Positions 1,921 through 18,741 of a DNA stretch of 64,000 bases are shown here, piece by piece. The stretch's first letter is position 1; every line of letters starts with the position of its first letter. The position numbers and the translations under genes are program-made. The stretch comes from Candidatus Woesebacteria bacterium (GTDB lineage Bacteria > Patescibacteriota > Microgenomatia > UBA1400 > MFAQ01). The DNA lies in assembly GCA_035389185.1 (NCBI GenBank), contig DAOORK010000001.1:631415-695414 (forward strand), read 5' to 3'. A model generated the notes under the pieces. The model had not been told where the DNA came from. It worked only from the letters and a program-made list of their open reading frames with translations, and did not search any database.

Positions 1921-2874
1921 ATGATTATTCATGCATTTATCTATTTGCTCTCGTTTATTGGTATTTGGGTAGGCTCTGGCTTGGCTATTAAGTCTGTAGA
2001 AAGGCTCTCTCAATCATTAAGGTTATCCTCGTTTGCCGTTTCATTCTTGGTTCTGGGTCTATTTACCTCCATTAGCGAGCTGTCCGTTGGAATTAACTCT
2101 GTCTTAGAGAACGACCCCGAAGTCTATGTAGGAAACCTCATAGGTGCATCAATTGTGCTATTTATGCTAATTGTGCCGCTTCTGGCGATTGTGGGCAATT
2201 CTATTCGTATTACGCCTGAACTTCAGGGTTTTAACTTGCCCGCTTCACTTGTAGTTATTGCTCTTCCAGTGATCTTGGCAATGGATGGAAGGGTAGGAAG
2301 AACAGACAGCATTATTGCCATGGCATTGTTTGGTTTTCTAATGATTAGTATCCAATCAAAACGAGGTTTATTAGAAAAAATAAAAAACATCAACCCACGA
2401 AATGGCGTAAAGGTTGGAAAAGAGCTGTTAAAAATTCTTTTTGGTGTAGCGGTTATTTTTGTTGCCAGTAAATTTGTAGTTGAACAAACTGTTTATTTTT
2501 CCAATTTTTTACATGTTTCTCCGTTCCTCATTAGTTTATTGTTGATAGCTATTGGCACGAATGTGCCTGAATTGTCCCTCGTCATTCGATCTGCATTCGT
2601 GCGTAATCATCAGATTGCTTTTGGTGATTATGTGGGATCTGCCGCTTTCAATACGCTTCTTTTAGGATTATTGACATTCTTTTATGGGAAGCCAGTGCTT
2701 TTGAATAATAGTTATGTAGTCAGCCTACTTTTTCTTATTGTGGGTTTAGTAGCTTTTTATTACTTTGCTAGGACTAAAAATACTATTTCGCGCGTAGAAG
2801 GTTTAGTGTTGTTGGCTTTATATGCCGCTTTTCTATTAACTGAGATTGGTATCCATGGAGGATTGAATTTCTAG
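1921..2874 (+). CDS. CaCA-family cation/Ca2+ antiporter (YrbG-like), two alpha-repeats
   Basis: 10-TM hydrophobic protein with alpha-repeat motifs SELSVGINSV...GNLIGASIV and GTNVPELSLVI...GSAAFNTLLLG. Confidence 0.65.
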   Translation: MIIHAFIYLLSFIGIWVGSGLAIKSVERLSQSLRLSSFAVSFLVLGLFTSISELSVGINSVLENDPEVYVGNLIGASIVLFMLIVPLLAIVGNSIRITPELQGFNLPASLVVIALPVILAMDGRVGRTDSIIAMALFGFLMISIQSKRGLLEKIKNINPRNGVKVGKELLKILFGVAVIFVASKFVVEQTVYFSNFLHVSPFLISLLLIAIGTNVPELSLVIRSAFVRNHQIAFGDYVGSAAFNTLLLGLLTFFYGKPVLLNNSYVVSLLFLIVGLVAFYYFARTKNTISRVEGLVLLALYAAFLLTEIGIHGGLNF

Positions 2875-4424
2875 TTAAGATTTGACAAAAATCGGGTCAC
2901 CTCTTTGTTGGTTAACTCTGGATATTCCAGATAATTTATCCAGTCAGTTGTCCGAAATTGTATCCATTTCTCGAGCCAAGCTTGACGATTGGCATAATTT
3001 AAGATTGTGTCGAATGGTTTTATCGCATCATATCGGACTATTTTGTCTTCCACTCTAAGGTTCGATAGTACGAGCTTGATTAACTGCCTTCTTTCCTCAA
3101 CTTCTGAACTTTTGAACAGCTCATAAGCCCGATTTGACAGTTCTAGCAGGTATTTAGCCGTGATGTAGTAGTTATCTTCGGCTTCTTGAAGCATTCCTAA
3201 GCGAGTAGTTATATCAGCCTTTTGCTCGTGGAATGACTGAAAGAATTTGTCATACTCATCGTCAGTAATACGCCCTTTGAGTTTATCGAGATAAAGGTTA
3301 TCCATCATTTTTGTTAGCGTTTTGTTCTCTTCATTGAGTTTGTCGAGTTGTTTATTGTGAAAGTCCATTTTGTCTTGATGAAGATTGCTGAGATTTCCGA
3401 CTACTTTATCTAAGACCCAATCGGGGATTTGTAATTGCTTAAATACATCGCCTATTTGCTCGGTAATTGTTTCTTCTCTTAGCCAATCAGCCCCGTGTTT
3501 ACCGTTGTATTGGGTGCAATGGTAATAGACGTGTCCTTTGTGTTTTTCTGGGGTTACAGCCAGCCCACAATGACCGCAACGTAGTAATCCTCGATAGATA
3601 TACGGTTTACCTGCATACTTAAAGGGTTTTTTGTTAAAGCTAGCTTTTACCTGTTGAACTTGGTCAAAAAGTTCTTTGGTTATGATAGGTATGTACTTGT
3701 GTTTGTATTGCTTGTTTTTCCAAGTCATTATGCCGTAGTAGAAGTGGTCTTTTAGAATTTTGTCGGTCATTCCCTTTGACCAATCAACCCCGTACTCGGA
3801 TTTTATCTTTTGTCTTAGTAACTCCATTGAGAAGCTACTGGTTGCATACCATTCATAGGCTTTTTGTACTACCTTTGAGGCAAAATCATCGACTACTATT
3901 TCTGTTTTATCTTTACTAATCGGTTCTCGTTTATAACCATAAGAAGGTCGAGAAGGATAAGTACCCATTCGAAGCATCTGTTCTTGGGCTCGTTTTACGT
4001 TATCGCTGATTGCGTCAGAGTAGTATTTGGCTAGCCCGAGGCTAATACTAAAATTAAACTTTTCTACTGCTGATAACTGGCTATTGATGACTTGTCCGTC
4101 CGAAACAAAATGAAGTTCTACCTCGTCTTTTAATGCTTTGTCATAAAGCATACCGACCCGTTTATCAAAAACATTTCGTGATAATCGGTCTACCTTGTCA
4201 AAACATACAGCGATTTTTTCTTTCTGTTCAAGAACATAGTCGAGGATATTATCAAAGTCATTACGCTTAGTCTTGTATGCACTTTCATCAAAGCTAAACT
4301 TTTCTAGTATTGGAAAGCCTTTGTTATTGCAGTATTTCTCAAGCCTAACGATTTGAGCGGGAAGAGAATTGCCAGCATCTTTTTGTTCTTCTGTGCTTAC
4401 TCTGGCAATTATTACTGCTTTCAT
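2871..4424 (-). CDS. large serine recombinase (resolvase/invertase N-domain, recombinase domain, zinc ribbon, coiled-coil)
   Basis: N-terminal IIARVSTEEQ and DRLSRN catalytic motifs; zinc ribbon CGHCG...YYHC; long C-terminal coiled-coil; 517 aa, typical LSR size. Confidence 0.85.
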   Translation of the reverse strand: MKAVIIARVSTEEQKDAGNSLPAQIVRLEKYCNNKGFPILEKFSFDESAYKTKRNDFDNILDYVLEQKEKIAVCFDKVDRLSRNVFDKRVGMLYDKALKDEVELHFVSDGQVINSQLSAVEKFNFSISLGLAKYYSDAISDNVKRAQEQMLRMGTYPSRPSYGYKREPISKDKTEIVVDDFASKVVQKAYEWYATSSFSMELLRQKIKSEYGVDWSKGMTDKILKDHFYYGIMTWKNKQYKHKYIPIITKELFDQVQQVKASFNKKPFKYAGKPYIYRGLLRCGHCGLAVTPEKHKGHVYYHCTQYNGKHGADWLREETITEQIGDVFKQLQIPDWVLDKVVGNLSNLHQDKMDFHNKQLDKLNEENKTLTKMMDNLYLDKLKGRITDDEYDKFFQSFHEQKADITTRLGMLQEAEDNYYITAKYLLELSNRAYELFKSSEVEERRQLIKLVLSNLRVEDKIVRYDAIKPFDTILNYANRQAWLEKWIQFRTTDWINYLEYPELTNKEVTRFLSNLN

Positions 4425-4427
4425 AGC

Positions 4428-5174
4428 TCATTTCTTGACTGGGGCAATTTGTCTTAGGTATGCGTCAAGAATAGCTTGTTTTAAGTTATCCGACTTTGCC
4501 TCGTAACTTGTAAATTCACCTATATTTTCTCTGTTGAAATGAAGTTGTCCTTCACCAACATTGCCCCTGTGTTGACCCGCTGAATAGTATTTATTTGTCG
4601 CTACTTCGGTTGAAGAAAAGACCCAATATCTAATAACATCTCTCCAAACACCCATCCATACAAATACATCGCAACACTTGGGTTTAACTTGTTGGAAGTT
4701 CATATCAAAAGGCATATCCTCATCTTTTGAGAGAGCCTTTATGTATAAGGGTTCGTGACTATTAAAATCAACAGCCCTTGATGCTTTTACTTCGATTGTA
4801 ACGAACTTGTTATCATCTACGTTTAACATAAAGTCGTATTGACCTGCATAGTTGGGGTCGATTTTTTTGGTCGGTTTAACTAAGTCAGGCACTAACTCTT
4901 TCAAATGTCCTTGAGCCCACAATTCCCCAAAACCTCTTGGGGCACTTATCTCGAAGATATGGAGGTACATATTTCTAGCGATATATTCATCTCTCATCAA
5001 GTAATAATCATCAAGGTTAAGTTTCTTTAACCCCAAGAGAGTAGAAATGATAAATTCATACTCGTTAAAAGGATAAACGGACATTAAGTTATCCAGTTTT
5101 TGCCTCAAAACGGCTTCTTCATCCTTGGATAGCTGAGATATTAAGCTGTCTAATTGGTGTTTTAATGATTGCAT
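4428..5174 (-). CDS. candidate PD-(D/E)xK restriction endonuclease, cognate to the adjacent N6A methyltransferase
   Basis: Motif YDFML...VTIEVKASR fits a D...(E/D)xK nuclease core. The gene starts 2 nt after the upstream MTase gene ends, same strand. Confidence 0.4.
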   Translation of the reverse strand: MQSLKHQLDSLISQLSKDEEAVLRQKLDNLMSVYPFNEYEFIISTLLGLKKLNLDDYYLMRDEYIARNMYLHIFEISAPRGFGELWAQGHLKELVPDLVKPTKKIDPNYAGQYDFMLNVDDNKFVTIEVKASRAVDFNSHEPLYIKALSKDEDMPFDMNFQQVKPKCCDVFVWMGVWRDVIRYWVFSSTEVATNKYYSAGQHRGNVGEGQLHFNRENIGEFTSYEAKSDNLKQAILDAYLRQIAPVKK

Positions 5175-5176
5175 AA

Positions 5177-7126
5177 TTACTTTCTTATTGAATTTTTAAT
5201 ATATTGTTTTTCATCTGTTGTTAGACCAAAGGCATCAAAAACGAACTCATTTAGCTTATCTTCGAGTTTATCCTTTTGAGTACCAGATAACAAATTATCT
5301 ACATCCTTTTCGATTTCGGCAAGAGTTTTATCGTCTATTTGTGGAAAGGGTAATAGTTCAAGGTCGCCTCTTAATACTTTGACCGTATTGAATTTCTTTT
5401 TCCATAAGTATTGAAAGATATTTGAGTTAAGAAAAACCAATACTACTTTTGTCGGGATTTCTGGAATTTTCGGGATGAGTATATTTGCACTATTGAGGGT
5501 TAGAGTTTGCTTATAGTCATAAGCAAAGGCAAGCTCACTTGAAATGAATTTGTAAATCAGCTTCTCCTTCGCTCGATATTTCCATACTGGAGCAACTTGT
5601 TGAAATTCGTCAGGTGTAAATTTGATAAATGAAGTAGCGGGATTAAATGTATATTTCTGTATATCCGAGCCTTTTAGTACCCCCTCATTATTATCTGTTT
5701 TGGTAGTCGAAATAAATTTGCCATTATTACCTGTAACGATACCCAATGCCCAATCTGCATTATCTTTCAATGTAGTGAAACTGTGTTTGTAAATTTTAGC
5801 TATTAACAGTTCGTCTTTTTCAGTAATACTTGTATCAAATGCGAAATCTGAATTATTTATAAATCTGTTCTGCTTGATTTTTGACACAAGTCCATCTTTT
5901 TGCGTAACCTCAATTTCGTTCTGAGCGTCACTTCTTTTTTGAATGGTCAACGTTATTACTGGTGACAACACTTTGCTAAAAACGTTACCTAAATGTTTGA
6001 TGCTTTTTATAGCACTACCCCTTAACAGAAAATCTCTAACATCTCGATGCTGTTTTACCTTTGTAACCGCTTCTGGTAGCACGTAGCAAAGAGAGCCATT
6101 ATCGTTCAATAGACTTAAACCCCTTACTAAAAAGTATGAAAAGGCCTCGTTCGAAATGATATTTGGATAAACCTTTCTCAACATTTCACTTTCTTCTTTT
6201 GAGAAGTGGTAACCCCAAGGTGGATTTGTTGCAATGATGTCAAACCTACCATCAGGGTTTTCTGTGAGGCTGTTTGCTACAAACATATTTGGATAAAAAT
6301 CAATTTCTGGATAGGTTGTTATAAGGTTTATTTTTGCAATCTGTACTGCTATTGGGTCAATATCGTATCCCCATAAAAGTAGCGGGTCAGGGATATACCT
6401 AGAAAAAGCAACAAGAAACTGTCCCGTTCCACAACAGGGGTCGAGAACCTTTGAGCCCTTCTTTATCTGACTAGATAAGTCTTCAACGATACCATCAATT
6501 AGTGTTTTAGGGGTGTAATAAGAACCGCCTTGGGACTTTTTACCCTCGTCGAGCAAGGATTGATATAAAACACCAAGGCTGTCAAAGCTGAACACATCAT
6601 CTACGTTTAGTAATTCTTGAAGGTCAGAAAGATTTATCTTTCCTAGTTTTTCTTCCCATTCAAGTATTACCTTCTTTATATTATTGTTCTTGAATTTAAC
6701 TTCACTTAGGGTTGAAACAAATTTATCGAAGGTCGCTAATTTGGTTTTTTTTAGAACAGAAAGACTGTGAATGAGTAGGGCGGTTTGGAGTGGTACTTGG
6801 TTTTTATTTATCTGTTCGATATAAGACTGTAATAGAGGTAGTTTGTCTTTATGACTTAATTGTTCAATAGGGATAAAGGTAGATTTTGAATTTCTTTTAT
6901 TCGCTCTATTGTTTAGTCGTTCGGTTTTTCCATTATGAATGTCGGTTTTAAGTTGTTCAATTTGTTTCTTTTCTAATAATTTTCCGCTACCCATTGGGGA
7001 ATAAGCCAGTTGACCTGTTTTAATCCAATTCCTTACGGTAGCAGTGGATACACCCAACAGCTCACTAGCCCGAAGAATGTCGAGTAGGTCTGCTTGGTCA
7101 TTTTCAAAAAGGCTAACTTGCTTCAT
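5177..7126 (-). CDS. gamma-class N6-adenine DNA methyltransferase with N-terminal excisionase/MerR-like HTH and C-terminal target-recognition region
   Basis: HTH LLGVSTATVRNWIKTGQL; motif I VLDPCCGTGQF; motif IV IIATNPPWGY; about 300 aa of TRD-like C-terminus. Confidence 0.8.
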   Translation of the reverse strand: MKQVSLFENDQADLLDILRASELLGVSTATVRNWIKTGQLAYSPMGSGKLLEKKQIEQLKTDIHNGKTERLNNRANKRNSKSTFIPIEQLSHKDKLPLLQSYIEQINKNQVPLQTALLIHSLSVLKKTKLATFDKFVSTLSEVKFKNNNIKKVILEWEEKLGKINLSDLQELLNVDDVFSFDSLGVLYQSLLDEGKKSQGGSYYTPKTLIDGIVEDLSSQIKKGSKVLDPCCGTGQFLVAFSRYIPDPLLLWGYDIDPIAVQIAKINLITTYPEIDFYPNMFVANSLTENPDGRFDIIATNPPWGYHFSKEESEMLRKVYPNIISNEAFSYFLVRGLSLLNDNGSLCYVLPEAVTKVKQHRDVRDFLLRGSAIKSIKHLGNVFSKVLSPVITLTIQKRSDAQNEIEVTQKDGLVSKIKQNRFINNSDFAFDTSITEKDELLIAKIYKHSFTTLKDNADWALGIVTGNNGKFISTTKTDNNEGVLKGSDIQKYTFNPATSFIKFTPDEFQQVAPVWKYRAKEKLIYKFISSELAFAYDYKQTLTLNSANILIPKIPEIPTKVVLVFLNSNIFQYLWKKKFNTVKVLRGDLELLPFPQIDDKTLAEIEKDVDNLLSGTQKDKLEDKLNEFVFDAFGLTTDEKQYIKNSIRK

Positions 7127-7289
7127 ATTTCTTTAAGAATTGGGATAAATTATCCTTGCTTATTCTGTATTGTTTGCCAGCTTTGTATGCAATTAAGCGG
7201 TTGGCACGTATCCAACGGTATACGGTCAGATATGCAACTTTGAGGGTCTTGGCCACTTCCTCGATGGAAAAGTATTGCTCGTCAGTCAT
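7113..7289 (-). CDS. excisionase-family HTH DNA-binding protein (Xis-like)
   Basis: EEVAKTLKVAYLTVYRWI...GKQYRI matches the excisionase/MerR HTH pattern; start set at the internal Met. Confidence 0.55.
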   Translation of the reverse strand: MTDEQYFSIEEVAKTLKVAYLTVYRWIRANRLIAYKAGKQYRISKDNLSQFLKKYEAS

Positions 7290-8430
7290 ATAAGTTATAT
7301 TTATCATTATTTAACATTAACCCTTCAAAATCAACTAGTTTTAATGGTTCAAAACGGGTCAAATGTTCACGGATTACCCCGAGTGGGCTTTTAGTCGTTG
7401 GAAGTTTTATTGTTTTAGCTTCTGCAATCAACCTATACCAACTTCTTTGACCATATTTACCAAACATATTTCTAAGTTCACGAGGGGTTGTGCTATCAAA
7501 TGCCTGCTTTAATCCAAAGAGTTGCATTGTCTTCCGTATACCGATATGAGGATTATTGATTGCAAGGTCTGCTAACAATGAGTTGGAGGTCGTCGGTTTG
7601 TAATCAAATAGGAGTAGCCGCTTGCTCTCTAGCTCATCGAGGTGGTGAAGTAAAATCCGTTGAGCGATTGTTGGGTTAAATAGGTTTTTTAAGGTCAATT
7701 CGGACTGGATACCCAAAGTACGGAATAGCTGTCCTATCTTTTGGCGTTTGTTAAGTCGTACTTCCATTCTCAATACCTCTAGTCGCTTTCTTTCTTTGAA
7801 AGCTTCAAAAAGATTGAGTTGTATGGCGTTATCGCCCTCGATTGCTCGCTTTTCGCTTTTGTTAGCCATTTCAAGGTCTTTTAGCTTGTCATAAAAGGCA
7901 ACCTCGTATGAGTTGCTATGCCATTTGAAGCTATGACCGTCGTTGCGGTAGTCCGTTTGGTTTACATCTAATGCCAATGAGAAATTTGCTTGTTTAATCT
8001 TACCTATAAGCAAGTGAGGAGTTGTACCGTTAGTCAGGGGTATATTTTTGGAGTAATGAATTGCTGAAACAGGGGCATTTTCCAATATGCTCGTAAAGAC
8101 CCCGACACCCATTTCTTTTAGCCTTGACTGTAAAAGTGCGACAACTGGCGTAAAGTCTGTCTCGCCTAATTCGTCAAAGTTGTTTCCGTATAGTAGTTTG
8201 GGTGCTGAAAACTCTATGGCTAAGGTAGCTTCGTGCCTTCCCGTTGTATTAAATCTTTTGGTCATAGTCAATCTTGGTTTATAAATACCGTTTTTCAACT
8301 CTGATTTGGTAGGGTTTTGCACGAGCGTAAAATAACCCCTCAAAGCGTTTTGTGTTTCTTTTTGAAAGTATGTTTTATCCATAACCCAAAACATATCTTT
8401 ACTAAGTGTTAGTCTTATTGTGTCCAACAT
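7282..8430 (-). CDS. putative replication initiation protein of the element (Rep_trans-like)
   Basis: 382-aa protein in an operon with Xis and the recombinase; weak resemblance to rolling-circle/phage replication initiators; no motifs confidently assigned. Confidence 0.35.
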   Translation of the reverse strand: MLDTIRLTLSKDMFWVMDKTYFQKETQNALRGYFTLVQNPTKSELKNGIYKPRLTMTKRFNTTGRHEATLAIEFSAPKLLYGNNFDELGETDFTPVVALLQSRLKEMGVGVFTSILENAPVSAIHYSKNIPLTNGTTPHLLIGKIKQANFSLALDVNQTDYRNDGHSFKWHSNSYEVAFYDKLKDLEMANKSEKRAIEGDNAIQLNLFEAFKERKRLEVLRMEVRLNKRQKIGQLFRTLGIQSELTLKNLFNPTIAQRILLHHLDELESKRLLLFDYKPTTSNSLLADLAINNPHIGIRKTMQLFGLKQAFDSTTPRELRNMFGKYGQRSWYRLIAEAKTIKLPTTKSPLGVIREHLTRFEPLKLVDFEGLMLNNDKYNLYD

Positions 8431-8695
8431 ACATTTTTGTTACATCTTCAAACTTAGAAATGATTACTTTTTCGATTTCTTCCGCAACTTTTCGGTTAAT
8501 CGGATGAAAGATATTGAAATTACCATTTGCACCTTTGCGAGTGGGGTAGGTCAACCGATACCCGCCTTGCGGTCTGGTATAGATACCGATTGACCCCATA
8601 TAAAAGCTGTCGTTATAGACTAAGCTCGCAAAACCCACTAGACCATCCGTTGGTTTAACTGGCACTACTTGAATTTCGCTTATACGGTTTTGCAT
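8402..8695 (-). CDS. SpoVG-like nucleic-acid-binding protein
   Basis: Aligns with SpoVG: VVPVKPTDGLVGFASLVYNDSFYMGSIGIY...NIFHPINRKVAEEIEKVI versus the SpoVG ...GRMRAIASITLD...FVVHDIRV...ITHPINSSTR pattern. Confidence 0.55.
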   Translation of the reverse strand: MQNRISEIQVVPVKPTDGLVGFASLVYNDSFYMGSIGIYTRPQGGYRLTYPTRKGANGNFNIFHPINRKVAEEIEKVIISKFEDVTKMYVGHNKTNT

Positions 8696-8937
8696 ACTTT
8701 CTCGTTACGTTTTGACCGTCGGTCAATTTGGATAAGTAAGGAAAAGAAGTCGGTTAGTCGTTTTAGCTCATCGGCAGGCAGAATGGGACCTTGTACGGGC
8801 CGTGTTTGCTCTTGTGGTGTTGGTTTGACGACTTCACTCGTTTCCATTGAGCAAAGTCTAGAAAACACTCGGAGGATTGTCGTTGTGGTAGGGAGAACTA
8901 GGTACTCTTAGGTATAAAAAGGGACAAAAGGGGACGT

Positions 8938-9981
8938 TTAGTGAGGGAGTACTAGCTTACCCCCACCTTTTACAAGCTTGATAAGAGGTTTCTTCATTTC
9001 TTCTAAATCCTTCTTTGTTATCGGATTTCTGAACTCAATAGCATTCTTTGACACGCTAAAGAAAACCTCTTTTGTATCTCCTTCAAAGCCCAGGTTTTCA
9101 ACTATCTTGTGTAGTGATTTAGTTAGTTTTCCTCCTACAGTTTTTTCAATTTCATCTATACCTATTCTTCTATTCGGGTTCTCATATAAGAACGAAAAAA
9201 CTAGGTCATTTTCGCTGTTAAAATCTGGTCTGCCTATTTGGGCGTTATTCATTAAGATTTGCCTCTGTTTGGTATAGGTAATCTCATAAACAACGACAGT
9301 TTCATCAGGGGATTTGTTGGAGGTTTTGTCTTCTTGCTCTTCTTTATTGATATTTATGTTTTTTTGCCCAAAATTGTTTACTTGCTCCAATACCTCAAAA
9401 AATCTTGCTATATTCAGAGTTAAGCCTGACGATAATGTCATATAAGCGGTGGTAAAGTTTTTGACTACGCCTATATTCTTGAGATAAGTTAAGCTTCTTA
9501 TATAGGTATTGATTATGTCGTCTACGTCCTCAGGCTCATAGCCTTCAATTTCTCTGGCTGAAGAAATAAAGTCTATTGCAAGTTTTTCGGATTGGACTAA
9601 CTCTAGTTGTTCCTCAATCAAATGCATTATGTGGCTAATATTCTTAAAGTTTGTTTCCGATAGGTTTTCTATTGTACTTTTTTGCTGGATAAGATACTGA
9701 GCATACCAATCGTCAAATTTCGGATTTATATCAACGAGTAGATAGTCAAGATTTTTAGGCTGTGAGCTAGGTGATAGCAGTCTGTTGTAAATCGGGTTTA
9801 TGGTTAAAATCTTGTTTTCGTATTCGAGCTTAGAAAGTATGTCCTGAACCTCTTCTTTCCCGATTTTTTCTAAGAAATTATCCTCTTTAATATACAGTTT
9901 AGTTGAGTGTTCATTTCGTGAGGCTTTTTTTGCTTCAACTAATGCTTTGAGAATTAAACCAAGTTTTACTTCGTATTTCAT
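8938..9981 (-). CDS. hypothetical protein (347 aa, island-encoded)
   Basis: Long ORF with island-like A-rich codon usage; no recognised motifs. Confidence 0.5.
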   Translation of the reverse strand: MKYEVKLGLILKALVEAKKASRNEHSTKLYIKEDNFLEKIGKEEVQDILSKLEYENKILTINPIYNRLLSPSSQPKNLDYLLVDINPKFDDWYAQYLIQQKSTIENLSETNFKNISHIMHLIEEQLELVQSEKLAIDFISSAREIEGYEPEDVDDIINTYIRSLTYLKNIGVVKNFTTAYMTLSSGLTLNIARFFEVLEQVNNFGQKNININKEEQEDKTSNKSPDETVVVYEITYTKQRQILMNNAQIGRPDFNSENDLVFSFLYENPNRRIGIDEIEKTVGGKLTKSLHKIVENLGFEGDTKEVFFSVSKNAIEFRNPITKKDLEEMKKPLIKLVKGGGKLVLPH

Positions 9982-10027
9982 AGGTCATTACATCTTCAAA
10001 TTTATCTTTGATTATAATTGCTTAATA

Positions 10028-10813
10028 ATGAAAAAGTATCGGCTTTATATTGACGAGTCTGGTAGTCATGAATATTCGGATAAGGATTCTATAAAGAGTC
10101 GTTATTTGGGTCTGCTAGGTGTAGTGGTGGAGTCTGGCGAGTATGAAACCAATATCCAGCCTAGGGTTATTGAACTCAAAAAAATGTTTTCGAATGACGC
10201 AGATGATTTGGTAGTATTACACCGTGATGAAATTGCTAACTTACAAGGACCGTTTTCAAAGCTATCCGATGAGGAATTTAAGAATAACTTTGACAGTAAA
10301 TTAAAAAGTTTGTTTAAAGAAGGGGAGTACCTCTTGCTTGGTGTTGTCTTAGACAAGAAAACTCATTATGCTCGCTACAAAACATCTGCTCTACACCCTT
10401 ATCATTACTGTCTCAATGTTATTTTGGAAAGATATGTCTTTTATTTAGAAGAAGTGGGAGGAGTCGGGGATGTAATGTCAGAAGCTAGAGGTAAAAATGA
10501 AGATAGTGCTTTAAGGGGTGCGTATTCTAACTTTTTTAACAATGGAACGTATTTTTGTAAGGCTCCACGAGTTCAGGCAAAATTAACTTCGAAAGCGATT
10601 AAGCTGAGAACAAAAGAAAACACGACTCAAGGACTAGAAATGGCTGACTTGCTGGTCTTAGCAACTAAAATTCTCATTCTCTTCTTATATAAGAAGATTG
10701 GACCATTAACTGGTAATTTCAACAAACAGGTAATGAGATGGGTTTGGTCCAAGTTCAGGCGTGAGCTAATATCCAAGAGAGTTAAGGGCTATGGAATAAA
10801 GTTGATTGAGTAA
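10028..10813 (+). CDS. DUF3800-family protein
   Basis: Starts MKKYRLYIDESGSHEY, the characteristic DUF3800 N-terminal YxDESG motif; start set at the internal ATG at 10028. Confidence 0.55.
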   Translation: MKKYRLYIDESGSHEYSDKDSIKSRYLGLLGVVVESGEYETNIQPRVIELKKMFSNDADDLVVLHRDEIANLQGPFSKLSDEEFKNNFDSKLKSLFKEGEYLLLGVVLDKKTHYARYKTSALHPYHYCLNVILERYVFYLEEVGGVGDVMSEARGKNEDSALRGAYSNFFNNGTYFCKAPRVQAKLTSKAIKLRTKENTTQGLEMADLLVLATKILILFLYKKIGPLTGNFNKQVMRWVWSKFRRELISKRVKGYGIKLIE

Positions 10814-10922
10814 ATAATGAAAAAGCCGATTACTCGGCTCGTTCACGATGCTCTTGCGAGGCATCCCCCTCCGATGAACGGATTAAGTAAATAATAGCAT
10901 TTGTTTTAGAGTTTGTGTGCTA

Positions 10923-12614
10923 CTAGGCACAAATTGGTTGAATTTTGAAGGTTTCAAACACTGTTTGGATGTTCTGTAAGCTAAATCCAAACTTTATTTC
11001 TCGGTTCTTAAATGCGTTTACCAAGGGGAGCCAAGCTGGATTTGAAGGTATCAAAAGAGGATTATTGAGCTGTATATCGCGATATTCCTGAGATTCGATC
11101 CAATCTTCTTTTAATTCCGACCATTTTTCTTGATTTGCGAAGACTTTATAGCGTTCTTTCAGATCTATCCGTACTTTTTTGTTGTGTAAATAGAGGTTCG
11201 ATCCAACTTTGTTGAGGATGTAGCGTTTATCTTCAACCTCGCCATTCATAAATCTATCTCTGGCACGGTTGGCATAGTCAATGGTTGTGCGTATTGCCTT
11301 ATACTCATTTTGACTGTTATCGCTTAAGAGTAGAGCCTTGAGTTGCTCAATCTTCTTATTTAGCTCCCGTTTTTTGCTTTCATAGGTAGTTTCGTCAATG
11401 CTGTTGTTTAGGTAAACATCTAAAAGACGATCTAGACTTGTTTGTGCCTTATCAAGCGCTGACTTTTGAGATTTCTTGATATCGGTAGCCTCATCAGCTT
11501 TACTCTGCTCAAGATAGTCAATCCAGCGGTTTGCCCAGTCGATAAAATCTTGGGGTGGTTTTATTTTTTCAAGTTCTTGAGCAGTTTCAGCTTTTAGATC
11601 TATTTCTGTTATTGGATCTTCGTGACATTCAATCTTATGGTTTTTTCTGGTGCAGTGGTGGTAGGTGTAGGTAACAGTTCTATTTGTTCCTCTGTAATAC
11701 TTGGTTTTGACAGTTCCGGTTATGGAGCATCCACAGGTTTCGCATAGGTACAGCCCGTTTAAATCGAGCCTGTGGCTTCTACGTACAGGTCTTCCTTTTC
11801 TGCCGAGCATTTTTTGTATTTGGTCAAACTGTTCTGGTGTGACCATGGCTTGGTGTCTACCGTGATACCACTTCCCACTCCCTTTTGGCCATTCATAATC
11901 GCCGGAATAGAAAGGATTTGTTAATAAGTTGTAAAAAGTTGACCTTGGTATCGGTAGACCAGCCTTGTTTGTTAATTTCCACACGTCTGTTGCTGTTTTC
12001 CAAATGTCGATTACTTGCTCACCGTCAAGGACTTTGAGTAACGATTTTCTAATGAGGTCAAACCTTTTTTTGTCTGGTCTAATTGTTTTGTAGCCCTTTT
12101 TCCCTAGGGGATTGTTTTTATATCCAGTTGGCGCTGGGGCGGGGTACCAACCCTTTTCTGCTTTAGTACGCATACCACGTTGGGAGCTTATTCCCTTATT
12201 GTCGTTTTCTAGCTTTGCTTGACTGCAATCAAGATTGAAAAGGAATTTATCATAGGGGTTGTCTTTATAAACCCTTGAAGCAGTGGTTATTTGCAGGAGG
12301 AACTTTTGATCCATGAGATATATCAACGCTCCAGTATCAACCGAGTTTCGCGATAACCGATCAGCACTCCAAGCAAGGATGGCGTTTGCTTCACCGTTCT
12401 TAATTTTCTCGAGCATTGTATTGAAGGCTAATCTCCCGGGTTTCTTGGCTGATTTTGATTCTGAAAGTGTCTCGGTTGTTTTTAGCTTGTTATTTGATTT
12501 GATGCGATCAAGTTCTTTTGTTTGGGATTCAAGCGAAAGGGCTTGTCTCTCCTCTGATTCTGAAGACTTACGGCAATAGACTATGTGTTTAATTGTTTTT
12601 GTTTCTTCGTTCAT
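10923..12614 (-). CDS. large serine recombinase, second copy
   Basis: IVYCRKSSESEERQ...DRLSRN resolvase domain; recombinase domain; zinc ribbon CETCGC...YHHC; C-terminal coiled-coil. Confidence 0.85.
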   Translation of the reverse strand: MNEETKTIKHIVYCRKSSESEERQALSLESQTKELDRIKSNNKLKTTETLSESKSAKKPGRLAFNTMLEKIKNGEANAILAWSADRLSRNSVDTGALIYLMDQKFLLQITTASRVYKDNPYDKFLFNLDCSQAKLENDNKGISSQRGMRTKAEKGWYPAPAPTGYKNNPLGKKGYKTIRPDKKRFDLIRKSLLKVLDGEQVIDIWKTATDVWKLTNKAGLPIPRSTFYNLLTNPFYSGDYEWPKGSGKWYHGRHQAMVTPEQFDQIQKMLGRKGRPVRRSHRLDLNGLYLCETCGCSITGTVKTKYYRGTNRTVTYTYHHCTRKNHKIECHEDPITEIDLKAETAQELEKIKPPQDFIDWANRWIDYLEQSKADEATDIKKSQKSALDKAQTSLDRLLDVYLNNSIDETTYESKKRELNKKIEQLKALLLSDNSQNEYKAIRTTIDYANRARDRFMNGEVEDKRYILNKVGSNLYLHNKKVRIDLKERYKVFANQEKWSELKEDWIESQEYRDIQLNNPLLIPSNPAWLPLVNAFKNREIKFGFSLQNIQTVFETFKIQPICA

Positions 12615-13066
12615 ATGATTGTTTTACTAACAATTAATGCTCTCTTTTGCTCGTCAAGTCTAGTGAACAGCTTATTCTTTTTAGTCTTATTTATTTCTGT
12701 ATTATTAGCGGGAGTTACATTTCCACTATATGGAGGAAGTGGATTTCCTGTATTAAAAGAAGTCCAGTTCCTTAAAAACTTGTCAGGACTGAGGATTAAA
12801 TAAGTATTGTGTTTGTCGTTCGGATACTTGGTTATTTGGATTAAGTCATACTTTACGAGAATTTTTAGGTACTCTCTAATCATTCTGTCTGTTCGGTTCA
12901 TCTTTTTTGCCAATAACTTTTCGGTGGGGAAGCAGGAATATCGTTCTGGAAAACCGTAGCAGAAGCTTCTAATTATGATGTAAAGCGCCTTTATTTGTGG
13001 TTCAAGCAGGGGGGAATAGAGAATGAAATTCTCAACTTGTGTATAGCCTTCCTTTTTGTTTTTCAT
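12611..13066 (-). CDS. winged-helix/HTH DNA-binding protein (putative replication or transcription regulator)
   Basis: ...LAKKMNRTDRMIREYLKILVKYDLI... HTH-like segment; the gene starts at the recombinase gene's stop codon. Confidence 0.35.
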   Translation of the reverse strand: MKNKKEGYTQVENFILYSPLLEPQIKALYIIIRSFCYGFPERYSCFPTEKLLAKKMNRTDRMIREYLKILVKYDLIQITKYPNDKHNTYLILSPDKFLRNWTSFNTGNPLPPYSGNVTPANNTEINKTKKNKLFTRLDEQKRALIVSKTII

Positions 13067-13203
13067 TCTTATCTTTGGCTAAAAACTGGAATAGCTCTAA
13101 AAAATCCCAGCTCTCGATCTTTGCTTCTGCTTCGGCTAGCTTTCTTCCGAAGTGTTTAATTAATAACTGTCGATATTCAGCTACTGCCTGTAGGGGTAAG
13201 GAT

Positions 13204-13449
13204 CTAGACTCTTTCATACAAGCGTGCCTTGAGCTCCTTAATTGCCTCAACAAGGTCTTTGCTGGCTACTAATAGTGAACGATCCCAGTGTGATTGGATG
13301 GTGTTTTCAACATCTTCGGGTGAATGGTCAAAAATAAACTCAACAAGCTTGTTGTTAAGCCGATTGAGCTGTCTTAGTTTCAATCCAGCTGCCATTAGTG
13401 CAGTACTTAGATAGAAGTCTTTTGTGGTGAAATACTTATCTTTTTCCAT
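13204..13449 (-). CDS. small hypothetical protein (81 aa)
   Basis: ORF in the minus-strand island gene string. Confidence 0.35.
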   Translation of the reverse strand: MEKDKYFTTKDFYLSTALMAAGLKLRQLNRLNNKLVEFIFDHSPEDVENTIQSHWDRSLLVASKDLVEAIKELKARLYERV

Positions 13450-13513
13450 ATCTTGTGGCTATGATGCCTTGATATGGAAATCATCTCAGGGGAGTTTGGC
13501 TGGAAATTCCGAC

Positions 13514-14380
13514 TTAATCAGCAATAAGTCGGAAAATACCACTCCAGTATTTTGGGGTGGGTAGTTGGTATCTCTCAACGACGTCGTAATAATTTCGTTT
13601 TAGCTTAGCTTGAAGCTTTTCTGTCTGTTTAAGGTAAATTTCTTCTAGTTCGTCTTCTGGTAGGTTTCCATATTTTTCTTCAATGAGATTTCCGGTTGCA
13701 CGCTCAATTGCGGCAGATATTAGAGTGTTGTATTCACCACGGTTTTTATCATTATTGAGCATGATTAATGATTCTTCTACCCTGAGGAATGATTTGATTT
13801 TTGATCTATCTTGCGAGCTTATGTCATGACGTTTTCTTTTTAACACCCTGCTTATGCTCTTGTCTGGAGTTAAGTCGGATAAGAACTCTTGGGCATCGGT
13901 TAGTGCATTGAACACATCTTCTTTTGAGGTATTTATGCTTATTGGAATATATGTTCCTTGGGTTATTGGTGAAATGGCGGACGCTATGACGAAGTTTCTC
14001 TCAGCGATCAATCCGTTAGGTTTACGGTCAAACACAACGAAATCTACCAGTAGCTCGGGTGGAAGATTTAATTTAGTAGCCAATCTAATCTCGTCCTTTA
14101 GTAGTCTAGAGAGGATGAACCAGTTCATCATGGTAAAAACATGTGGGTCTAGCGGAGTGTTTTCTTTGTAGGTGGACTTCCAAGTATTGGCAAATTCATT
14201 TGCTAGGTCGAGATGGTTTTTCCCACTCCATTCGTATAGCGCTTTCTCATCAACAAATGGCCTTGTTATCCCAAGTTTCTCTCGGGCATTTATGGCTAGC
14301 TTGAAGGCAATATAGCTATTGAAAAACAACTGAACGCGAAGGGAGTAGTAATCTAACCCCTCAATTATTTTCATACTCAT
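13514..14380 (-). CDS. hypothetical protein, possibly Abi-like
   Basis: 288 aa; the N-terminal YYSLRVQLFF...Y segment loosely resembles the Abi_2 YYRLSxY motif; weak. Confidence 0.4.
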   Translation of the reverse strand: MSMKIIEGLDYYSLRVQLFFNSYIAFKLAINAREKLGITRPFVDEKALYEWSGKNHLDLANEFANTWKSTYKENTPLDPHVFTMMNWFILSRLLKDEIRLATKLNLPPELLVDFVVFDRKPNGLIAERNFVIASAISPITQGTYIPISINTSKEDVFNALTDAQEFLSDLTPDKSISRVLKRKRHDISSQDRSKIKSFLRVEESLIMLNNDKNRGEYNTLISAAIERATGNLIEEKYGNLPEDELEEIYLKQTEKLQAKLKRNYYDVVERYQLPTPKYWSGIFRLIAD

Positions 14381-14711
14381 CTGGCTGAATCTTACTCCAA
14401 GAGTAGGTGTCTAGGTGGGTTTTAGGTTGAAAATTTGTTACTTAAACACATAATCTTGTCGTTTCACCTAAATTAGATTGACTTTTAATACAGTTCTTGA
14501 TTTTTCAGCCTCAATGAAAGTCCAAAAAATACTGTAAAAAACTCTCAAAATTGTGTAGAAACACTATGCATATTAAGTATTTTGAGGCTAAAATAACAAA
14601 TAATTTTCGGAGAGTTTTGACAGTTCCAGTTTCTTGTGATGAAAGTGATTATGACGTTGAGGCTAAATATCTAGTTGGGCAGGTGTTCAGGATTAATGTC
14701 TGTGAAGGTTT

Positions 14712-14999
14712 TTATGGCCTCCAAAGTTTTTTGGCGATTAACCTTTTAAGCGCATTAAATAACCATTTGAACAGTAACACCAAGAGGAAGCATATTGCTA
14801 CAAGAATCCAGTAAATCCATCCTTGAGGATTGGGAGCAATATCAGCAATTAATCCACTGTCAGCCTCTAGAGTGAGGGCATAAAAGATGAACAAACCGAC
14901 CGTGGCGACGGGGATACAGACAGCTACTAATCCAATTCGGATTATTGTAAAAATTAGTTTAATGATTTTCCTTAGGAGTTCCTTTCTCTTTTTTGTCAT
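14712..14999 (-). CDS. small membrane protein (overlaps upstream membrane gene; possible frameshifted single gene)
   Basis: hydrophobic; 41-65 bp overlap with 14959..15447 in a different frame. Confidence 0.35.
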   Translation of the reverse strand: MTKKRKELLRKIIKLIFTIIRIGLVAVCIPVATVGLFIFYALTLEADSGLIADIAPNPQGWIYWILVAICFLLVLLFKWLFNALKRLIAKKLWRP

Positions 15000-15447
15000 T
15001 AAGTTTCTTATAGACAACACCAATTATTAGTAGCGTTATGACCATGGATAGGGCATAGATGATTGGTGATGCGATTTCATAAGATTGTATGAATACGCCT
15101 AAGATGAAAGTTACAGGAAGCTGAACGAGGAAGAAGAATGGTGCCCCAATTAAGAAGGTGGAAATTACAGCTCTTGTGTTTCTGAAAAATATTGCATCGA
15201 GGAAGCACTTTATTCCAACCAATAGGATATTTGATTCTTTCTGGCTGCTAGTATTTTCGAGTTGGTGATTTTTCCATTGGCTTATTAGGAAAATGGCAGC
15301 AGTTATGGCTATTGATACGACTGCAAGCTCTATAAGTCCAAGCAATACGTTGTTTGTTTCTTGGTAAAACATGGGGAGAAAAACAAGGAGAGTAATGGCT
15401 AGTAGCCACTTGTGTTTTTTAATGAAGGCTTTGTATTGGTCGATCAT
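14959..15447 (-). CDS. membrane protein (4 TM)
   Basis: hydrophobic helices. Confidence 0.45.
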   Translation of the reverse strand: MIDQYKAFIKKHKWLLAITLLVFLPMFYQETNNVLLGLIELAVVSIAITAAIFLISQWKNHQLENTSSQKESNILLVGIKCFLDAIFFRNTRAVISTFLIGAPFFFLVQLPVTFILGVFIQSYEIASPIIYALSMVITLLIIGVVYKKLNDKKEKGTPKENH

Positions 15448-15514
15448 ACTTTTCTCATTATAACGCTATGTTTACTGCGTTGTCGTCAAGGACGGATACT
15501 ACCACACTTATCTT

Positions 15515-15733
15515 GTGATATCCAAAGAAAAACTGAGCAAACTGATTGGGAAGCGAATTAGAGAGGAGAGGGAGAAAAGGGGGTTGTCGCAAGAAGCCTT
15601 AGCCGGTGACGCGGGTCTGTACAGGACTTATGTCGGTCACCTTGAAAATGGGAGGTATATGCCGACCATATTTACGATTTATCGTGTGGCTGAAGTGTTA
15701 AAGATCGATCCCCTGAGTTTGCTTAAGATTTAA
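15515..15733 (+). CDS. XRE-family HTH regulator, likely controller (C) protein of the downstream R-M module
   Basis: GLSQEALAGDAGLYRTYVGHLENG HTH; 72 aa; GTG start; lies just upstream of the C5-MTase gene. Confidence 0.65.
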   Translation: MISKEKLSKLIGKRIREEREKRGLSQEALAGDAGLYRTYVGHLENGRYMPTIFTIYRVAEVLKIDPLSLLKI

Positions 15734-18545: not shown

Positions 18546-18741
18546 TATGACTCTAAAACGGGCTAGAAGAATCTTAGGGAAAAATGGGAAAGGGCTCACT
18601 GATGGAGAGCTTACAAAAGAGATTGAGATGGCAAGTTTTCTTGCGCAATTGGTTTTAAGTGTTGCGCGAACTAAAAAGCTGCCTTAGCCTTAATAAGCTA
18701 TAATTTCGGTTGGGAATACATATTCTTGATTGAAGAAAAGA

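What the first reader, a model, noticed from the sequence alone, without database searches (positions are those of the whole stretch)
2871..14400. Compact integrative element with serine recombinases, a replication module and its own R-M system
Genes on the minus strand from 8695 down to 2871 are packed with 2-29 bp overlaps, in the order SpoVG-like, Rep, Xis-HTH, HTH-fused N6A methyltransferase, PD-(D/E)xK candidate, large serine recombinase. A second large serine recombinase (10923..12614) sits 6.5 kb away in the same orientation, with DUF3800 and unknown proteins between them. Codon usage is A-rich, unlike the G/T-rich coding strands of the suf or tkt genes, which indicates horizontal acquisition. 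Two LSR genes could mean two tandem elements or one element with a dual recombinase.
Basis: partly seen in the sequence, partly recalled or inferred. Interest (0 to 1): 0.6.

Follow-up and report, generated by a model that had tools for sequence, protein, structure and literature searches.

The report
Two tandem serine-recombinase elements carrying restriction systems
The region holds two small mobile DNA elements inserted side by side in a tiny (Patescibacteria) bacterial genome; each carries restriction-modification genes, and each has a recombinase gene that runs across the element's own end, so integration replaces the last part of the enzyme.

Summary
The genes are real, but the element is drawn wrongly. 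Window 2973-21193 (18.2 kb) is a head-to-tail array of two integrative elements in a Candidatus Woesebacteria genome. It fills the gap between a Na/Ca-exchanger gene and a conserved 101-aa gene.

E1 (2973-11031) carries DUF3800, p347, a conserved 55-aa ORF, a SpoVG-like gene, a Rep_trans-fold protein, HTH_17, a type II methyltransferase and restriction enzyme, and LSR1. E2 (11028-21193) carries two more type II R-M pairs, an XRE regulator, p162, p288, DUF5659, a DnaD-like protein and LSR2.

Near-identical E1-type copies elsewhere sit in unrelated flanks. They place the crossover in a GCTC core inside the recombinase ORF, about 34 codons before its stop. The opposite element end encodes the conserved native tail, so the full ORF exists only across the circular junction. 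In relatives the usual target is the 3' end of tRNA-Asn. The window copy sits at a non-tRNA site.

The family is widespread in Patescibacteria (1,776 Rep homologues). I found no description of it in the searched library. Activity of this copy, and any function of the tail swap, are untested.

The parts
2973..2976 (-). Right junction of E1 (P arm of E1 joined to host flank B'). The core is GCTC on the minus strand, and TGGCTC encodes W483-L484 of LSR1.
   Evidence: DNA homology of more than 20 related loci to LSR1 stops at window 2973, apart from one alignment that runs 1 nt further. Members of the 90%-identity LSR1 cluster are alike up to ..AWL and then unrelated. The same core was defined at nucleotide level in L027-L034.
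2871..2972 (-). Host-encoded replacement tail of LSR1 (33 codons plus stop, EKWIQFRTT...SNLN*). It lies in the 98-nt spacer after the Na/Ca-exchanger stop. No tRNA is present here.
   Evidence: Sequence. ARAGORN finds no tRNA in the window. Rfam finds no tRNA-like match at E <= 10. There is no homology to relatives.
2871..4424 (-). LSR1, the large serine recombinase of E1 (517 aa as integrated; 484 aa are element-encoded).
   Evidence: Pfam Resolvase, Recombinase and Zn_ribbon_recom. The 90% cluster has 33 members; the 15 listed are 164-532 aa, and the 11 I read are 486-532 aa with divergent tails.
4428..5174 (-). Type II restriction endonuclease (E1 cargo).
   Evidence: PADLOC REase_II E = 9e-72. 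A D...EVK motif is visible in the translation.
5177..7126 (-). N6-adenine DNA methyltransferase with an N-terminal HTH_17 and a TaqI_C specificity domain (E1 cargo).
   Evidence: Pfam. PADLOC MTase_II E = 4e-114.
7113..7307 (-). HTH_17 (excisionase-like) DNA-binding protein, conserved directly after the Rep gene in the family.
   Evidence: Pfam HTH_17 E = 8e-13. PHROG excisionase families. Conserved position in about 50 loci.
7282..8430 (-). Rep_trans-fold protein (p382), a candidate rolling-circle initiator or relaxase, with invariant FYDK and RxExRLN motifs.
8402..8695 (-). SpoVG-like protein.
   Evidence: Pfam SpoVG 38.3 bits against a cut-off of 29.6. Conserved in most E1-type loci.
8680..8847 (-). 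Conserved small ORF (about 55 aa; motif ELKRLTDFFSLLIQIDRR).
   Evidence: tblastn hits at the same position in about 45 loci.
8938..9981 (-). p347, a conserved core protein of E1-type elements. Function unknown.
   Evidence: Always upstream of the SpoVG gene in related elements. No family hit.
10028..10813 (+). DUF3800 protein, occupying the left-end cargo slot of E1. Other copies hold def, DUF5655, SocA_Panacea or an SDH protease in this slot.
   Evidence: Pfam. Cargo survey.
10923..11027 (-). P' arm of E1. It encodes the native 34-aa LSR tail (PLVNAFKNREIKFGFSLQNIQTVFETFKIQPICA*), which LSR2 currently reads in frame.
   Evidence: Sequence. It is the only significant tail-profile hit in the window (nhmmer E = 1.3e-16). 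34 unique homologous tails lie at element left ends.
11028..11031 (-). E2/E1 junction core (P arm of E2 joined to P' of E1).
   Evidence: TGGCTC at 11028-11033 in the LSR2 frame. Homology to the solitary E2-type element L035 ends at 11025.
10923..12614 (-). LSR2, the large serine recombinase of E2 (563 aa as integrated; the last 34 aa are encoded by E1).
   Evidence: Pfam. 23% identical to LSR1. AF2 pLDDT 87.8.
12611..13066 (-). HTH_36 / DnaD_N-like protein, a candidate replication initiator of E2.
   Evidence: Pfam, weak hits. PHROG DnaD-like helicase loader E = 1.9e-9.
13204..14380 (-). DUF5659 protein (13204-13449) and p288 (13514-14380), core genes of E2.
   Evidence: 94% and 70% aa identity to L035. 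Pfam DUF5659.
14959..15733 (.). p162 (14959-15447, minus) and a divergent XRE-family HTH gene (15515-15733, plus). This is the likely regulatory switch of E2.
   Evidence: p162 is 80% identical to L035. NCBIfam HTH hits. The same layout occurs in L028, L035 and L117.
15791..18545 (+). C5 cytosine methyltransferase plus a BbrUII/HgiDII-like GHKL restriction enzyme (E2 cargo).
   Evidence: Pfam. NCBIfam 1.4e-87. PADLOC.
18730..21130 (+). EcoRI-like adenine methyltransferase plus a GmrSD_N/HNH restriction enzyme (E2 cargo).
   Evidence: Pfam. PADLOC REase_II 1e-81. The same pair, 73-79% identical, sits in the cargo slot of an E1-type element in L044.
21139..21193 (-). Left end of E2: core GCTC (21190-21193) plus a P' arm encoding a short tail (PVLDQIRNSVDTPIHN*). 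It lies 20 nt upstream of the p101 start codon.
   Evidence: 16 of 18 nt identical to L035:554. The motif matches the tails of E2-type recombinases such as P0165 (..WL|PALEQIRTS..). Sequence. This boundary rests on fewer data than the other two.

Best explanation
Window 2973-21193 is a head-to-tail array of two independent integrative elements, E2 followed by E1, in a Candidatus Woesebacteria (Patescibacteria) chromosome. Each is mobilised by its own large serine recombinase (LSR).

Shown:
- Both belong to families whose members sit alone or in tandem in many other Patescibacteria genomes.
- Recombination occurs in a 4-nt core, GCTC, which lies inside the recombinase ORF as the codons TGG-CTC (W-L), about 34 codons before the native stop.
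- The integrated gene therefore ends in foreign DNA. In the window this is the host spacer for LSR1 and the left end of E1 for LSR2. In most relatives it is a tRNA T-arm, giving tails such as ..PRVDSNHEP.
- The native, conserved tail is encoded at the opposite end of the integrated element.
- The usual target in relatives is the 3' end of tRNA-Asn(GTT). A more distant subgroup uses tRNA-Asp, and single cases use tRNA-Gln and probably tRNA-Pro.
- The cargo slots are filled mostly with R-M systems.

Inferred:
- After excision the element is a circle in which the full-length recombinase ORF is rebuilt across attP.
- E1 then replicates by rolling circle, and/or is transferred as single-stranded DNA, using its Rep_trans-fold protein. 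The SpoVG-like protein, the 55-aa protein, p347 and HTH_17 would be accessory or regulatory factors.
- Arrays grow because each insertion regenerates the target half-site next to the recombinase end.
- The three type II R-M systems serve both as host defence and as addiction modules that stabilise the elements.

The window copy sits at a non-tRNA secondary site just downstream of the Na/Ca-exchanger gene.
For: - Host and island limits. Relatives of the flanking gene are Microgenomates MAGs, and L017 keeps NaCaEx-HSP20-MBL-LctP synteny with only 4 kb between NaCaEx and HSP20. The proteins are annotated as Candidatus Woesebacteria.
- Discrete mobile unit. A 5.93-kb E1-type element is 99.6-100% identical in L027-L031, L033 and L034, with unrelated flanks on both sides. 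L032 carries a 93%-identical partial copy. The ends are mapped to ...CTCTGGCTC| and |GCTCCGCC....
- Target site. ARAGORN places tRNA-Asn(GTT) on the opposite strand exactly at the junction. In the survey of related loci the recombinase ends abut tRNA-Asn 18 times, tRNA-Asp 5 times, tRNA-Gln once, a P' arm 5 times and something else 8 times.
- ORF crosses the end. The LSR1 cluster members I read are alike up to ..WL and then diverge. Of 119 LSR2 homologues, 56 end in a tRNA read-through (D/G/E)S(N/D) tail.
- Native tail. 34 unique tail-coding segments at element left ends are open in that frame. The other two frames hold 86 and 101 stops. Third codon positions vary most (entropy 1.31, against 1.05 and 0.76), and pN/pS is about 0.5.
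- Window junctions.
- The two types occur separately. L035 is an E2-type element alone at tRNA-Asn. E2-E1 tandems recur in L028 and L036.
- Rep fold.
- R-M cargo.
- Circle or tandem junction. The L090 contig ends with its own recombinase joined to its own P' arm.
Against: - I have no direct evidence that the window copies still move. All 6-8 public contigs that carry the flanking genes also carry the array. No empty site or circular junction of this exact element was found. The exact-match junction search returned nothing, not even the source contig, so it is uninformative.
- The window insertion site is not a tRNA, unlike almost all relatives, and I cannot explain this.
- The left end of E2 rests on one short match plus a motif.
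- AF2 gives only low to moderate confidence for the tail (pLDDT 58-72), so no structural role can be claimed.
- The tail set was selected for open frames of at least 28 codons, which inflates the frame contrast somewhat.
Confidence: 0.78

Rival explanations
1. The region is one composite element with two cooperating recombinases, like the ccrA/ccrB pair of SCCmec. It would move as a single 18-kb unit.
For: The E2-type then E1-type order recurs in three independent loci: the window, L028 and L036. LSR2 reads in frame into the left end of E1, so the two are physically coupled.
Against: E1-type elements occur alone with their own left junction in L027, L029-L031 and L033. An E2-type element occurs alone at tRNA-Asn in L035. 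The two recombinases are only 23% identical, and each sits at the end of its own module. E1-E1 tandems also exist in L029, L087 and L111.
Confidence: 0.08
2. The region is a fixed defence island built from decayed mobile elements. The recombinases would be relics or domesticated, and nothing moves any more.
For: The array is present in every contig from several samples that carries the flanking genes. The site is not the family's usual tRNA target. Decayed recombinase fragments do exist in relatives L019, L020, L061 and L076.
Against: All ORFs are intact and tightly packed. The LSR1 cluster is more than 90% identical across proteins annotated as Woesebacteria, Roizmanbacteria and CPR2, which argues for recent transfer. 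Both junction cores and both P' arms are intact. The element genes have not taken on the host's strand skew.
Confidence: 0.12
3. E2, or both elements, is a cryptic prophage or phage satellite rather than a plasmid-like element.
For: E2 has a divergent XRE repressor-like gene and a DnaD-like initiator that matches phage replication families. p162 has a weak holin-like hit.
Against: No capsid, portal, terminase or tail family was detected. Megablast against phage genomes and two scans of viral contigs found nothing. The elements are only 8-10 kb, and most of that is R-M cargo.
Confidence: 0.1

Closest known systems
Integrative and mobilizable elements (IMEs) and ICEs of Firmicutes with Rep_trans/MobT relaxases and a site-specific recombinase (reviews PMC5704250, PMC7563843, PMC6499999)
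   Same: Both are small integrated elements. Both combine an integration/excision module, which can be a serine recombinase, with a Rep_trans-fold protein and variable cargo. Both form tandem accretions at the target.
   Different: Here the host is Patescibacteria, where no conjugative helper is known. The Rep protein is too divergent to match PF02486. The recombinase ORF runs across the att site. The accessory genes (SpoVG-like, p347, 55-aa ORF) are different.
SSV-type ('suicidal') tyrosine integrases of archaeal viruses and plasmids (PMC7253208, PMC8371274)
   Same: In both, the recombination site lies inside the integrase ORF, the targets are tRNA genes, and integration changes the integrase gene product.
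   Different: Those are tyrosine recombinases in archaea, and the gene is split into two inactive parts. Here it is a serine recombinase in bacteria. Only the last 34 codons are exchanged, so the catalytic and DNA-binding domains stay intact.
Phage large serine integrases such as Bxb1 and phiC31 with separate directionality factors (PMC1470463, PMC12286644)
   Same: The domain architecture is the same: Resolvase, Recombinase and a zinc ribbon with a coiled coil. The att sites are short and share only a small core.
   Different: In the characterised systems attP lies outside the integrase ORF, as far as I know (from memory). tRNA 3' ends are not a described target: the term tRNA does not occur in the large LSR survey PMC10083194. 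No directionality factor has been identified here.
pT181-family rolling-circle plasmids (RepD/RepDE; PDB 4cwc, 4cij)
   Same: These are the best structural matches of p382. The size range of the excised element (6-10 kb) is plasmid-like.
Tandem genomic islands at tRNA/tmRNA genes formed by tyrosine integrases (general knowledge, not tested here)
   Same: [quoted passage not shown]
   Different: The recombinase class differs. The core is only 4 nt, whereas tyrosine systems duplicate tens of nucleotides of tRNA sequence.

Membership tests
Large serine recombinase (LSR) integrative elements | N-terminal resolvase catalytic domain, followed by a recombinase domain and a zinc ribbon with a coiled coil | tested here: met
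   Pfam finds all three domains in LSR1 and two in LSR2. The AF2 model of LSR2 shows beta-hairpins at 297-321 and long helices at 355-457. Four Cys and the catalytic-domain residues are invariant.
Large serine recombinase (LSR) integrative elements | A discrete element bounded by att sites that share a short core | tested here: met
   The GCTC core was mapped from seven 99.6-100% identical copies in different flanks. The same core is found at window 2973, 11028 and 21190.
Large serine recombinase (LSR) integrative elements | Excision to a circle and re-integration | not testable with these tools
   The only hint is indirect. The L090 contig joins its own recombinase end to its own P' arm. No junction was found for the window copy.
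Rep_trans (PF02486) rolling-circle initiators / MobT relaxases | Sequence match to the family profile | tested here: not met
   No Pfam, NCBIfam or PHROG hit at E <= 0.01. A profile search of PDB sequences gave no meaningful hit.
Rep_trans (PF02486) rolling-circle initiators / MobT relaxases | Rep_trans fold | tested here: met
Rep_trans (PF02486) rolling-circle initiators / MobT relaxases | Catalytic tyrosine and a cognate nick site (dso/oriT) | tested here: inconclusive
   Y180 in the FYDK motif is invariant in 32 homologues. Its equivalence to the RepD active-site Tyr was not checked residue by residue. No origin was identified.
Integrative and mobilizable elements (IME) | Dependence on a co-resident conjugative apparatus | not tested
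   No conjugation genes lie in the element or in the window ORFs I examined. The whole genome was not available.
SSV-type integrase systems | Tyrosine recombinase whose ORF is split into two parts on integration | tested here: not met
   The enzyme is a serine recombinase. Only a 34-aa tail is exchanged, and 484 of 518 residues stay contiguous.
Type II restriction-modification systems | Adjacent methyltransferase and endonuclease genes | tested here: met
   There are three pairs: 4428-7126, 15791-18545 and 18730-21130. PADLOC calls an MTase_II and a REase_II in each. NCBIfam identifies a BbrUII/HgiDII-family enzyme.
Prophage / phage satellite | Virion structural or packaging genes, or similarity to known phages | tested here: not met
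   The ten proteins without a clear Pfam assignment that I scanned against PHROGs hit only replication and excisionase families, plus one weak holin-like hit. There was no phage megablast hit and no viral-contig relative.

The most novel reading that the evidence does not exclude
The C-terminal tail swap could be a built-in sensor of integration state that controls recombination direction. Only the excised circle encodes the recombinase with its conserved native tail, which would be the integration-competent form. The integrated copy makes a tail-less or foreign-tailed enzyme, which would be excision-competent or inert. If so, directionality would be set by the topology of the element rather than by a separate directionality factor.

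More broadly, this large clade of tRNA-end-targeting serine recombinases and their 6-10 kb Rep_trans elements may be the main natural vectors of R-M systems in Patescibacteria. They could be starting material for genetic tools in these uncultivated bacteria.
Probability: 0.25. Interest if true: 0.85.

Novelty: new variant of a known kind. Interest (0 to 1): 0.66.

Why it matters
Patescibacteria (CPR) make up a large share of bacterial diversity, yet full-text searches here found no description of precisely delimited mobile elements in them. This locus, together with about 90 related loci, defines two families of small integrative elements at nucleotide resolution. The definition covers their ends, target (mainly tRNA-Asn), core genes and cargo slots.

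The cargo slots hold mostly R-M systems. Near-identical recombinases occur in proteins annotated as Woesebacteria, Roizmanbacteria and CPR2. This points to active exchange of defence genes between reduced, symbiotic bacteria.

The recombinase ORF crosses attP, and a conserved tail is encoded at the far end of the integrated element. I did not find this arrangement described for serine integrases. It suggests a testable way in which an element could sense whether it is integrated.

Serine integrases with known short att sites are sought-after genome-engineering tools, so a large clade with predictable tRNA-end targets is of practical interest.

Tried and rejected
- Direct and inverted repeat search over 1500-16000 gave only short chance-level matches. 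This fits a 4-nt core, but it did not help to find the ends.
- Megablast against phage genomes found nothing. Single-protein scans of viral contigs with p382 and LSR1 also found nothing.
- An exact search of metagenome contigs for the P/P' junction AGCTTGGCTCCCCTTGGTAAACGC gave no hit, not even the source contig. It says nothing either way.
- A profile search of PDB sequences with the p382 alignment gave no meaningful hit. Only the fold comparison worked.
- A tail profile and a P' DNA profile found only one type-1 P' arm in the window. I first thought E2 had lost its left end. A second tail type (LDxIR) then located it at 21193.
- A homologue search with the last 92 aa of LSR2 returned only 11 short ORFs. 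It was no use for building a tail-rich alignment.
- The AF2 model of LSR2 gave pLDDT 58-72 for the tail. No docking inference can be drawn.
- I looked for a decayed tRNA at 2875-2972 with ARAGORN and with Rfam at E <= 10 and found none. A 1-nt-shifted resemblance to the T-arm (TGGATAC against TGGATTC) is too weak to use.
- I looked for an empty site, or for array-free copies of the same host genes, by exact-protein look-up. Every contig carries the array.
- I rejected the idea that the break in the Logan contig at window ~9022 marks an element end. It falls inside p347.

Full report
**What is in the sequence**

- LSR1 (2871-4424, minus strand) has Resolvase, Recombinase and Zn_ribbon_recom domains.
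- The 5177-7126 protein has HTH_17, N6_Mtase and TaqI_C domains.
- The 7113-7307 protein is an HTH_17 protein.
- The 8402-8695 protein matches SpoVG above the Pfam cut-off.
- The 10028-10813 protein matches DUF3800.
- LSR2 (10923-12614) has Resolvase and Recombinase domains.
- The 248-aa PD-(D/E)xK candidate is a type II restriction enzyme by PADLOC (E = 9e-72). Its neighbour is a type II methyltransferase (E = 4e-114).

The packing is tight but not all overlaps. The junctions are gaps of 3 and 2 nt and overlaps of 14, 26 and 29 nt. The two recombinases are only 23% identical.

**Host and limits of the variable region**

Relatives of the flanking Na/Ca-exchanger gene (1921-2874) all come from Patescibacteria/Microgenomates MAGs. 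The window proteins are deposited as Candidatus Woesebacteria, on a 905-kb contig.

In Collierbacteria L017 the order NaCaEx-HSP20-MBL-LctP-hemerythrin is kept, with only 4 kb between NaCaEx and HSP20. The window has about 20 kb there. The island is therefore much larger than 2871-14400.

**The elements are defined by copies elsewhere**

The 382-aa 'Rep' has 1,776 homologues. The 120 best listed are 62-91% identical. The few that carry a source name are almost all labelled Patescibacteria lineages, and none has a Pfam domain.

Their genomic contexts show a constant module: p347, SpoVG, Rep, HTH_17, variable cargo, LSR. So p347 (8938-9981) belongs to the first element, not to a spacer.

Seven loci (L027-L031, L033, L034) carry a 5.93-kb element that is 99.6-100% identical, while the DNA on both sides is unrelated. 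L032 carries a 93%-identical partial copy. Aligning the junctions gives a right end ...CAACTCTGGCTC| and a left end |GCTCCGCCTAG.... The two ends share only GCTC.

**The recombinase ORF crosses the element end**

The right end lies inside the recombinase ORF, where TGG-CTC encodes W-L, about 30 codons before the stop.

In L027, L028, L032 and L033 the flanking DNA is a tRNA-Asn(GTT) gene on the other strand. Its 3' end ...GAGCCA overlaps the core. The recombinase then reads through the T-arm and ends in peptides such as WL|ALLDSNQKPFR.

The left end, read in the same frame, continues the ORF as WL|RLVDAFCNHKIEFSVNLQLLQNFFADWQLTPSFA*. The complete ORF therefore exists only when the two ends are joined, that is, across attP of a circle or in a tandem array.

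The members of the 90%-identity LSR1 cluster that I read show the same pattern directly. The cluster has 33 members. The 11 I read are 486-532 aa long, alike up to ..AWL, and end in unrelated tails.

**The window junctions**

- LSR1 has TGGCTC at 2973-2978 (minus strand). DNA homology of more than 20 loci stops at 2973, apart from one alignment that runs 1 nt further. Its last 33 codons (EKWIQFRTT...) are host spacer.
- LSR2 has TGGCTC at 11028-11033. It continues as PLVNAFKNREIKFGFSLQNIQTVFETFKIQPICA*, which is homologous to the native tail above. This is the only such segment in the window (nhmmer E = 1.3e-16).
- So E1 is 2973-11031 (8.06 kb), including DUF3800, and the right end of E2 abuts the left end of E1.
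- The same E2-then-E1 arrangement, in the same frame, occurs in L028 and L036.
- An E2-type element also sits alone at tRNA-Asn in L035. There the LSR is 70%, p162 80%, p288 70% and DUF5659 94% identical to the window proteins.

The two elements are therefore independent and share a target and a core.

**The left end of E2**

E2-type elements have an XRE-HTH gene divergent from their core genes, with defence cargo beyond it (L028, L035, L036, L117).

In the window a minus-strand GCTC at 21190-21193 is followed by PVLDQIRNSVDTPIHN*. The DNA is 16 of 18 nt identical to a site at the edge of L035. The peptide matches the LDxIR-type tails attached to E2-type recombinases, for example P0165 ...WL|PALEQIRTS.

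This puts E2 at 11028-21193 (10.2 kb). It then includes the C5 methyltransferase with a BbrUII/HgiDII-like enzyme, and the EcoRI-like methyltransferase with a GmrSD_N/HNH enzyme.

The array then fills the space between NaCaEx and p101 (21214-21519), leaving 98 nt and 20 nt of spacer. p101 lies close to NaCaEx in relatives L016 and L018. This boundary is the least secure of the three.

**How general the arrangement is**

I fetched 80 further loci using the Rep alignment. In these and the earlier loci, complete recombinases end at an in-frame TGGC core that abuts:
- tRNA-Asn in 18 cases;
- tRNA-Asp in 5 cases (core TGGCGG);
- tRNA-Gln in 1 case;
- a P' arm in 5 cases (tandem array or circle);
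- something else in 8 cases, six of which look like tRNA T-arm fragments.

In one further locus (L064) the recombinase homology ends at a tRNA-Pro gene.

Among 119 LSR2 homologues, 56 end in a (D/G/E)S(N/D) tRNA read-through tail and 28 stop within 3 residues of WL.

I collected 34 unique tail-coding segments at element left ends. They are open in the tail frame, while the other two frames hold 86 and 101 stops. Third codon positions are the most variable, and pN/pS is about 0.5. The segment therefore evolves as coding sequence, although at a solitary left junction nothing upstream could translate it. One caveat applies: I selected segments with at least 28 open codons, so the frame contrast is somewhat inflated.

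Contig L090 ends with its own recombinase joined to its own P' arm, with the last 55 nt equal to nt 47-101. This is what a circle junction or a tandem duplicate would give.

**Functions**

- A 55-aa ORF (8680-8847; motif ELKRLTDFFSLLIQIDRR) is conserved in about 45 loci.
- p151 of E2 matches DnaD-like phage replication families.
- The cargo between HTH_17 and the recombinase, in 57 ORFs from related elements, is dominated by R-M genes.
- The left-end slot holds def, DUF3800, DUF5655, SocA_Panacea or an SDH protease.
- The EcoRI-methyltransferase/GmrSD pair of E2 is 73-79% identical to a pair in the cargo slot of an E1-type element in L044. Cargo therefore moves between element types.
- No virion genes or phage similarity were found.

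**Composition**

The host plus strand is G-rich whatever the gene direction. Core plus-strand genes have coding-strand GC skew of +0.3 to +0.46, and core minus-strand genes -0.09 to -0.34.

The minus-strand element genes still differ, with skew -0.07 to +0.08 and more A. GC content is only slightly lower than the host's. This is compatible with recent acquisition.

**What is not shown**

- Every public contig with the flanking genes carries the array, and no circular junction of this copy was found (uninformative). Current mobility of this copy is unproven.
- The insertion site lacks a tRNA, and I cannot explain this.
- The tail is modelled with low confidence. Its role is open.
- The idea that it sets recombination direction is a hypothesis.

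**Literature**

Full-text searches found nothing on serine-recombinase elements of Patescibacteria or on serine integrases that target tRNA ends. The library is incomplete, so this is not proof of novelty.

The closest concept is the SSV-type tyrosine integrases, whose ORF contains attP (PMC7253208). The closest element type is the IMEs with Rep_trans relaxases (PMC5704250, PMC7563843).

**Verdict**

This is a real and well-delimited feature: two tandem integrative elements from a widespread family that I did not find described. The family shows an unusual att-in-ORF arrangement. Interest 0.66; novelty: new variant of a known kind.

Noticed in passing
L001/L003 (upstream of window position 1, beyond the signal peptidase gene): The other side of the signal-peptidase/NaCaEx pair also carries defence-type genes: HTH_17/MerR, a 220-aa protein, a ResIII helicase, an N6_N4 methyltransferase (type III-like R-M), a KTSC protein and an AAA_15 ATPase. 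The two core genes may sit in the middle of a larger defence region.
   Followed up: no
window 8680-8847 (minus): A conserved small ORF of about 55 aa (ELKRLTDFFSLLIQIDRR) lies between p347 and the SpoVG-like gene. It is found at the same position in about 45 related loci and overlaps the SpoVG start by 16 nt. Function unknown.
   Followed up: partly
window 1-64000: There is no tRNA or tmRNA gene anywhere in the 64 kb, although the element family normally targets tRNA-Asn. The plus strand has a strong, monotonic positive GC skew over at least the first 30 kb, as expected for a replication leading strand.
   Followed up: no
L019:1132-1522, L020:533-820, L061:7022-7402, L076:7895-8191: Isolated fragments match only the last ~100-137 residues of LSR1. 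They lie next to a tRNA-Asn gene (L019) or next to the P' arm of a complete element (L076). L020 and L061 have no such neighbour that I could see. They look like remnants of deleted elements.
   Followed up: partly
L064, L067, L070, L071, L075, L078, L081, L092: A more distant subgroup has Rep about 50% identical and mostly lacks detectable SpoVG, p347 and HTH_17 genes. It uses the core TGGCGG and ends at tRNA-Asp(GTC). L064 ends at tRNA-Pro. L081, which does keep p347 and SpoVG, ends at tRNA-Gln. Target switching thus follows recombinase divergence.
   Followed up: partly
L027-L034 (element position equivalent to L030:329-889): One E1-type element carries a peptide deformylase gene (def) as left-end cargo and an Erm-like rRNA adenine dimethylase (RrnaAD) as right-hand cargo. 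These are translation-related genes rather than defence genes.
   Followed up: no
junctions in L027, L028, L032, L033, L035: In integrated copies the last two bases (CA) of the tRNA's encoded 3' ...GAGCCA come from the element. The left-junction flanks do not begin with the complement of CA, so the unoccupied tRNA-Asn gene may lack an encoded CCA end. No empty site was available to check this.
   Followed up: no
L035:554 and L035:1220; L038:4749: L035 has two candidate short-tail P' sites, 666 nt apart (PVLDQIKTC.. and PVLDIVATT..). The flank before the first resembles the end of a recombinase gene (ATCCAACAT..). L038 has a similar site 1.2 kb upstream of a type-1 P' arm. These may be traces of further decayed array members.
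   Followed up: no
L002/L005 (Logan contig SRR4244858_82712): The assembly of the same genome from another run breaks at window ~9022, inside p347. The rest of the array is on another contig. The break does not coincide with any element end, and its cause is unknown.
   Followed up: partly
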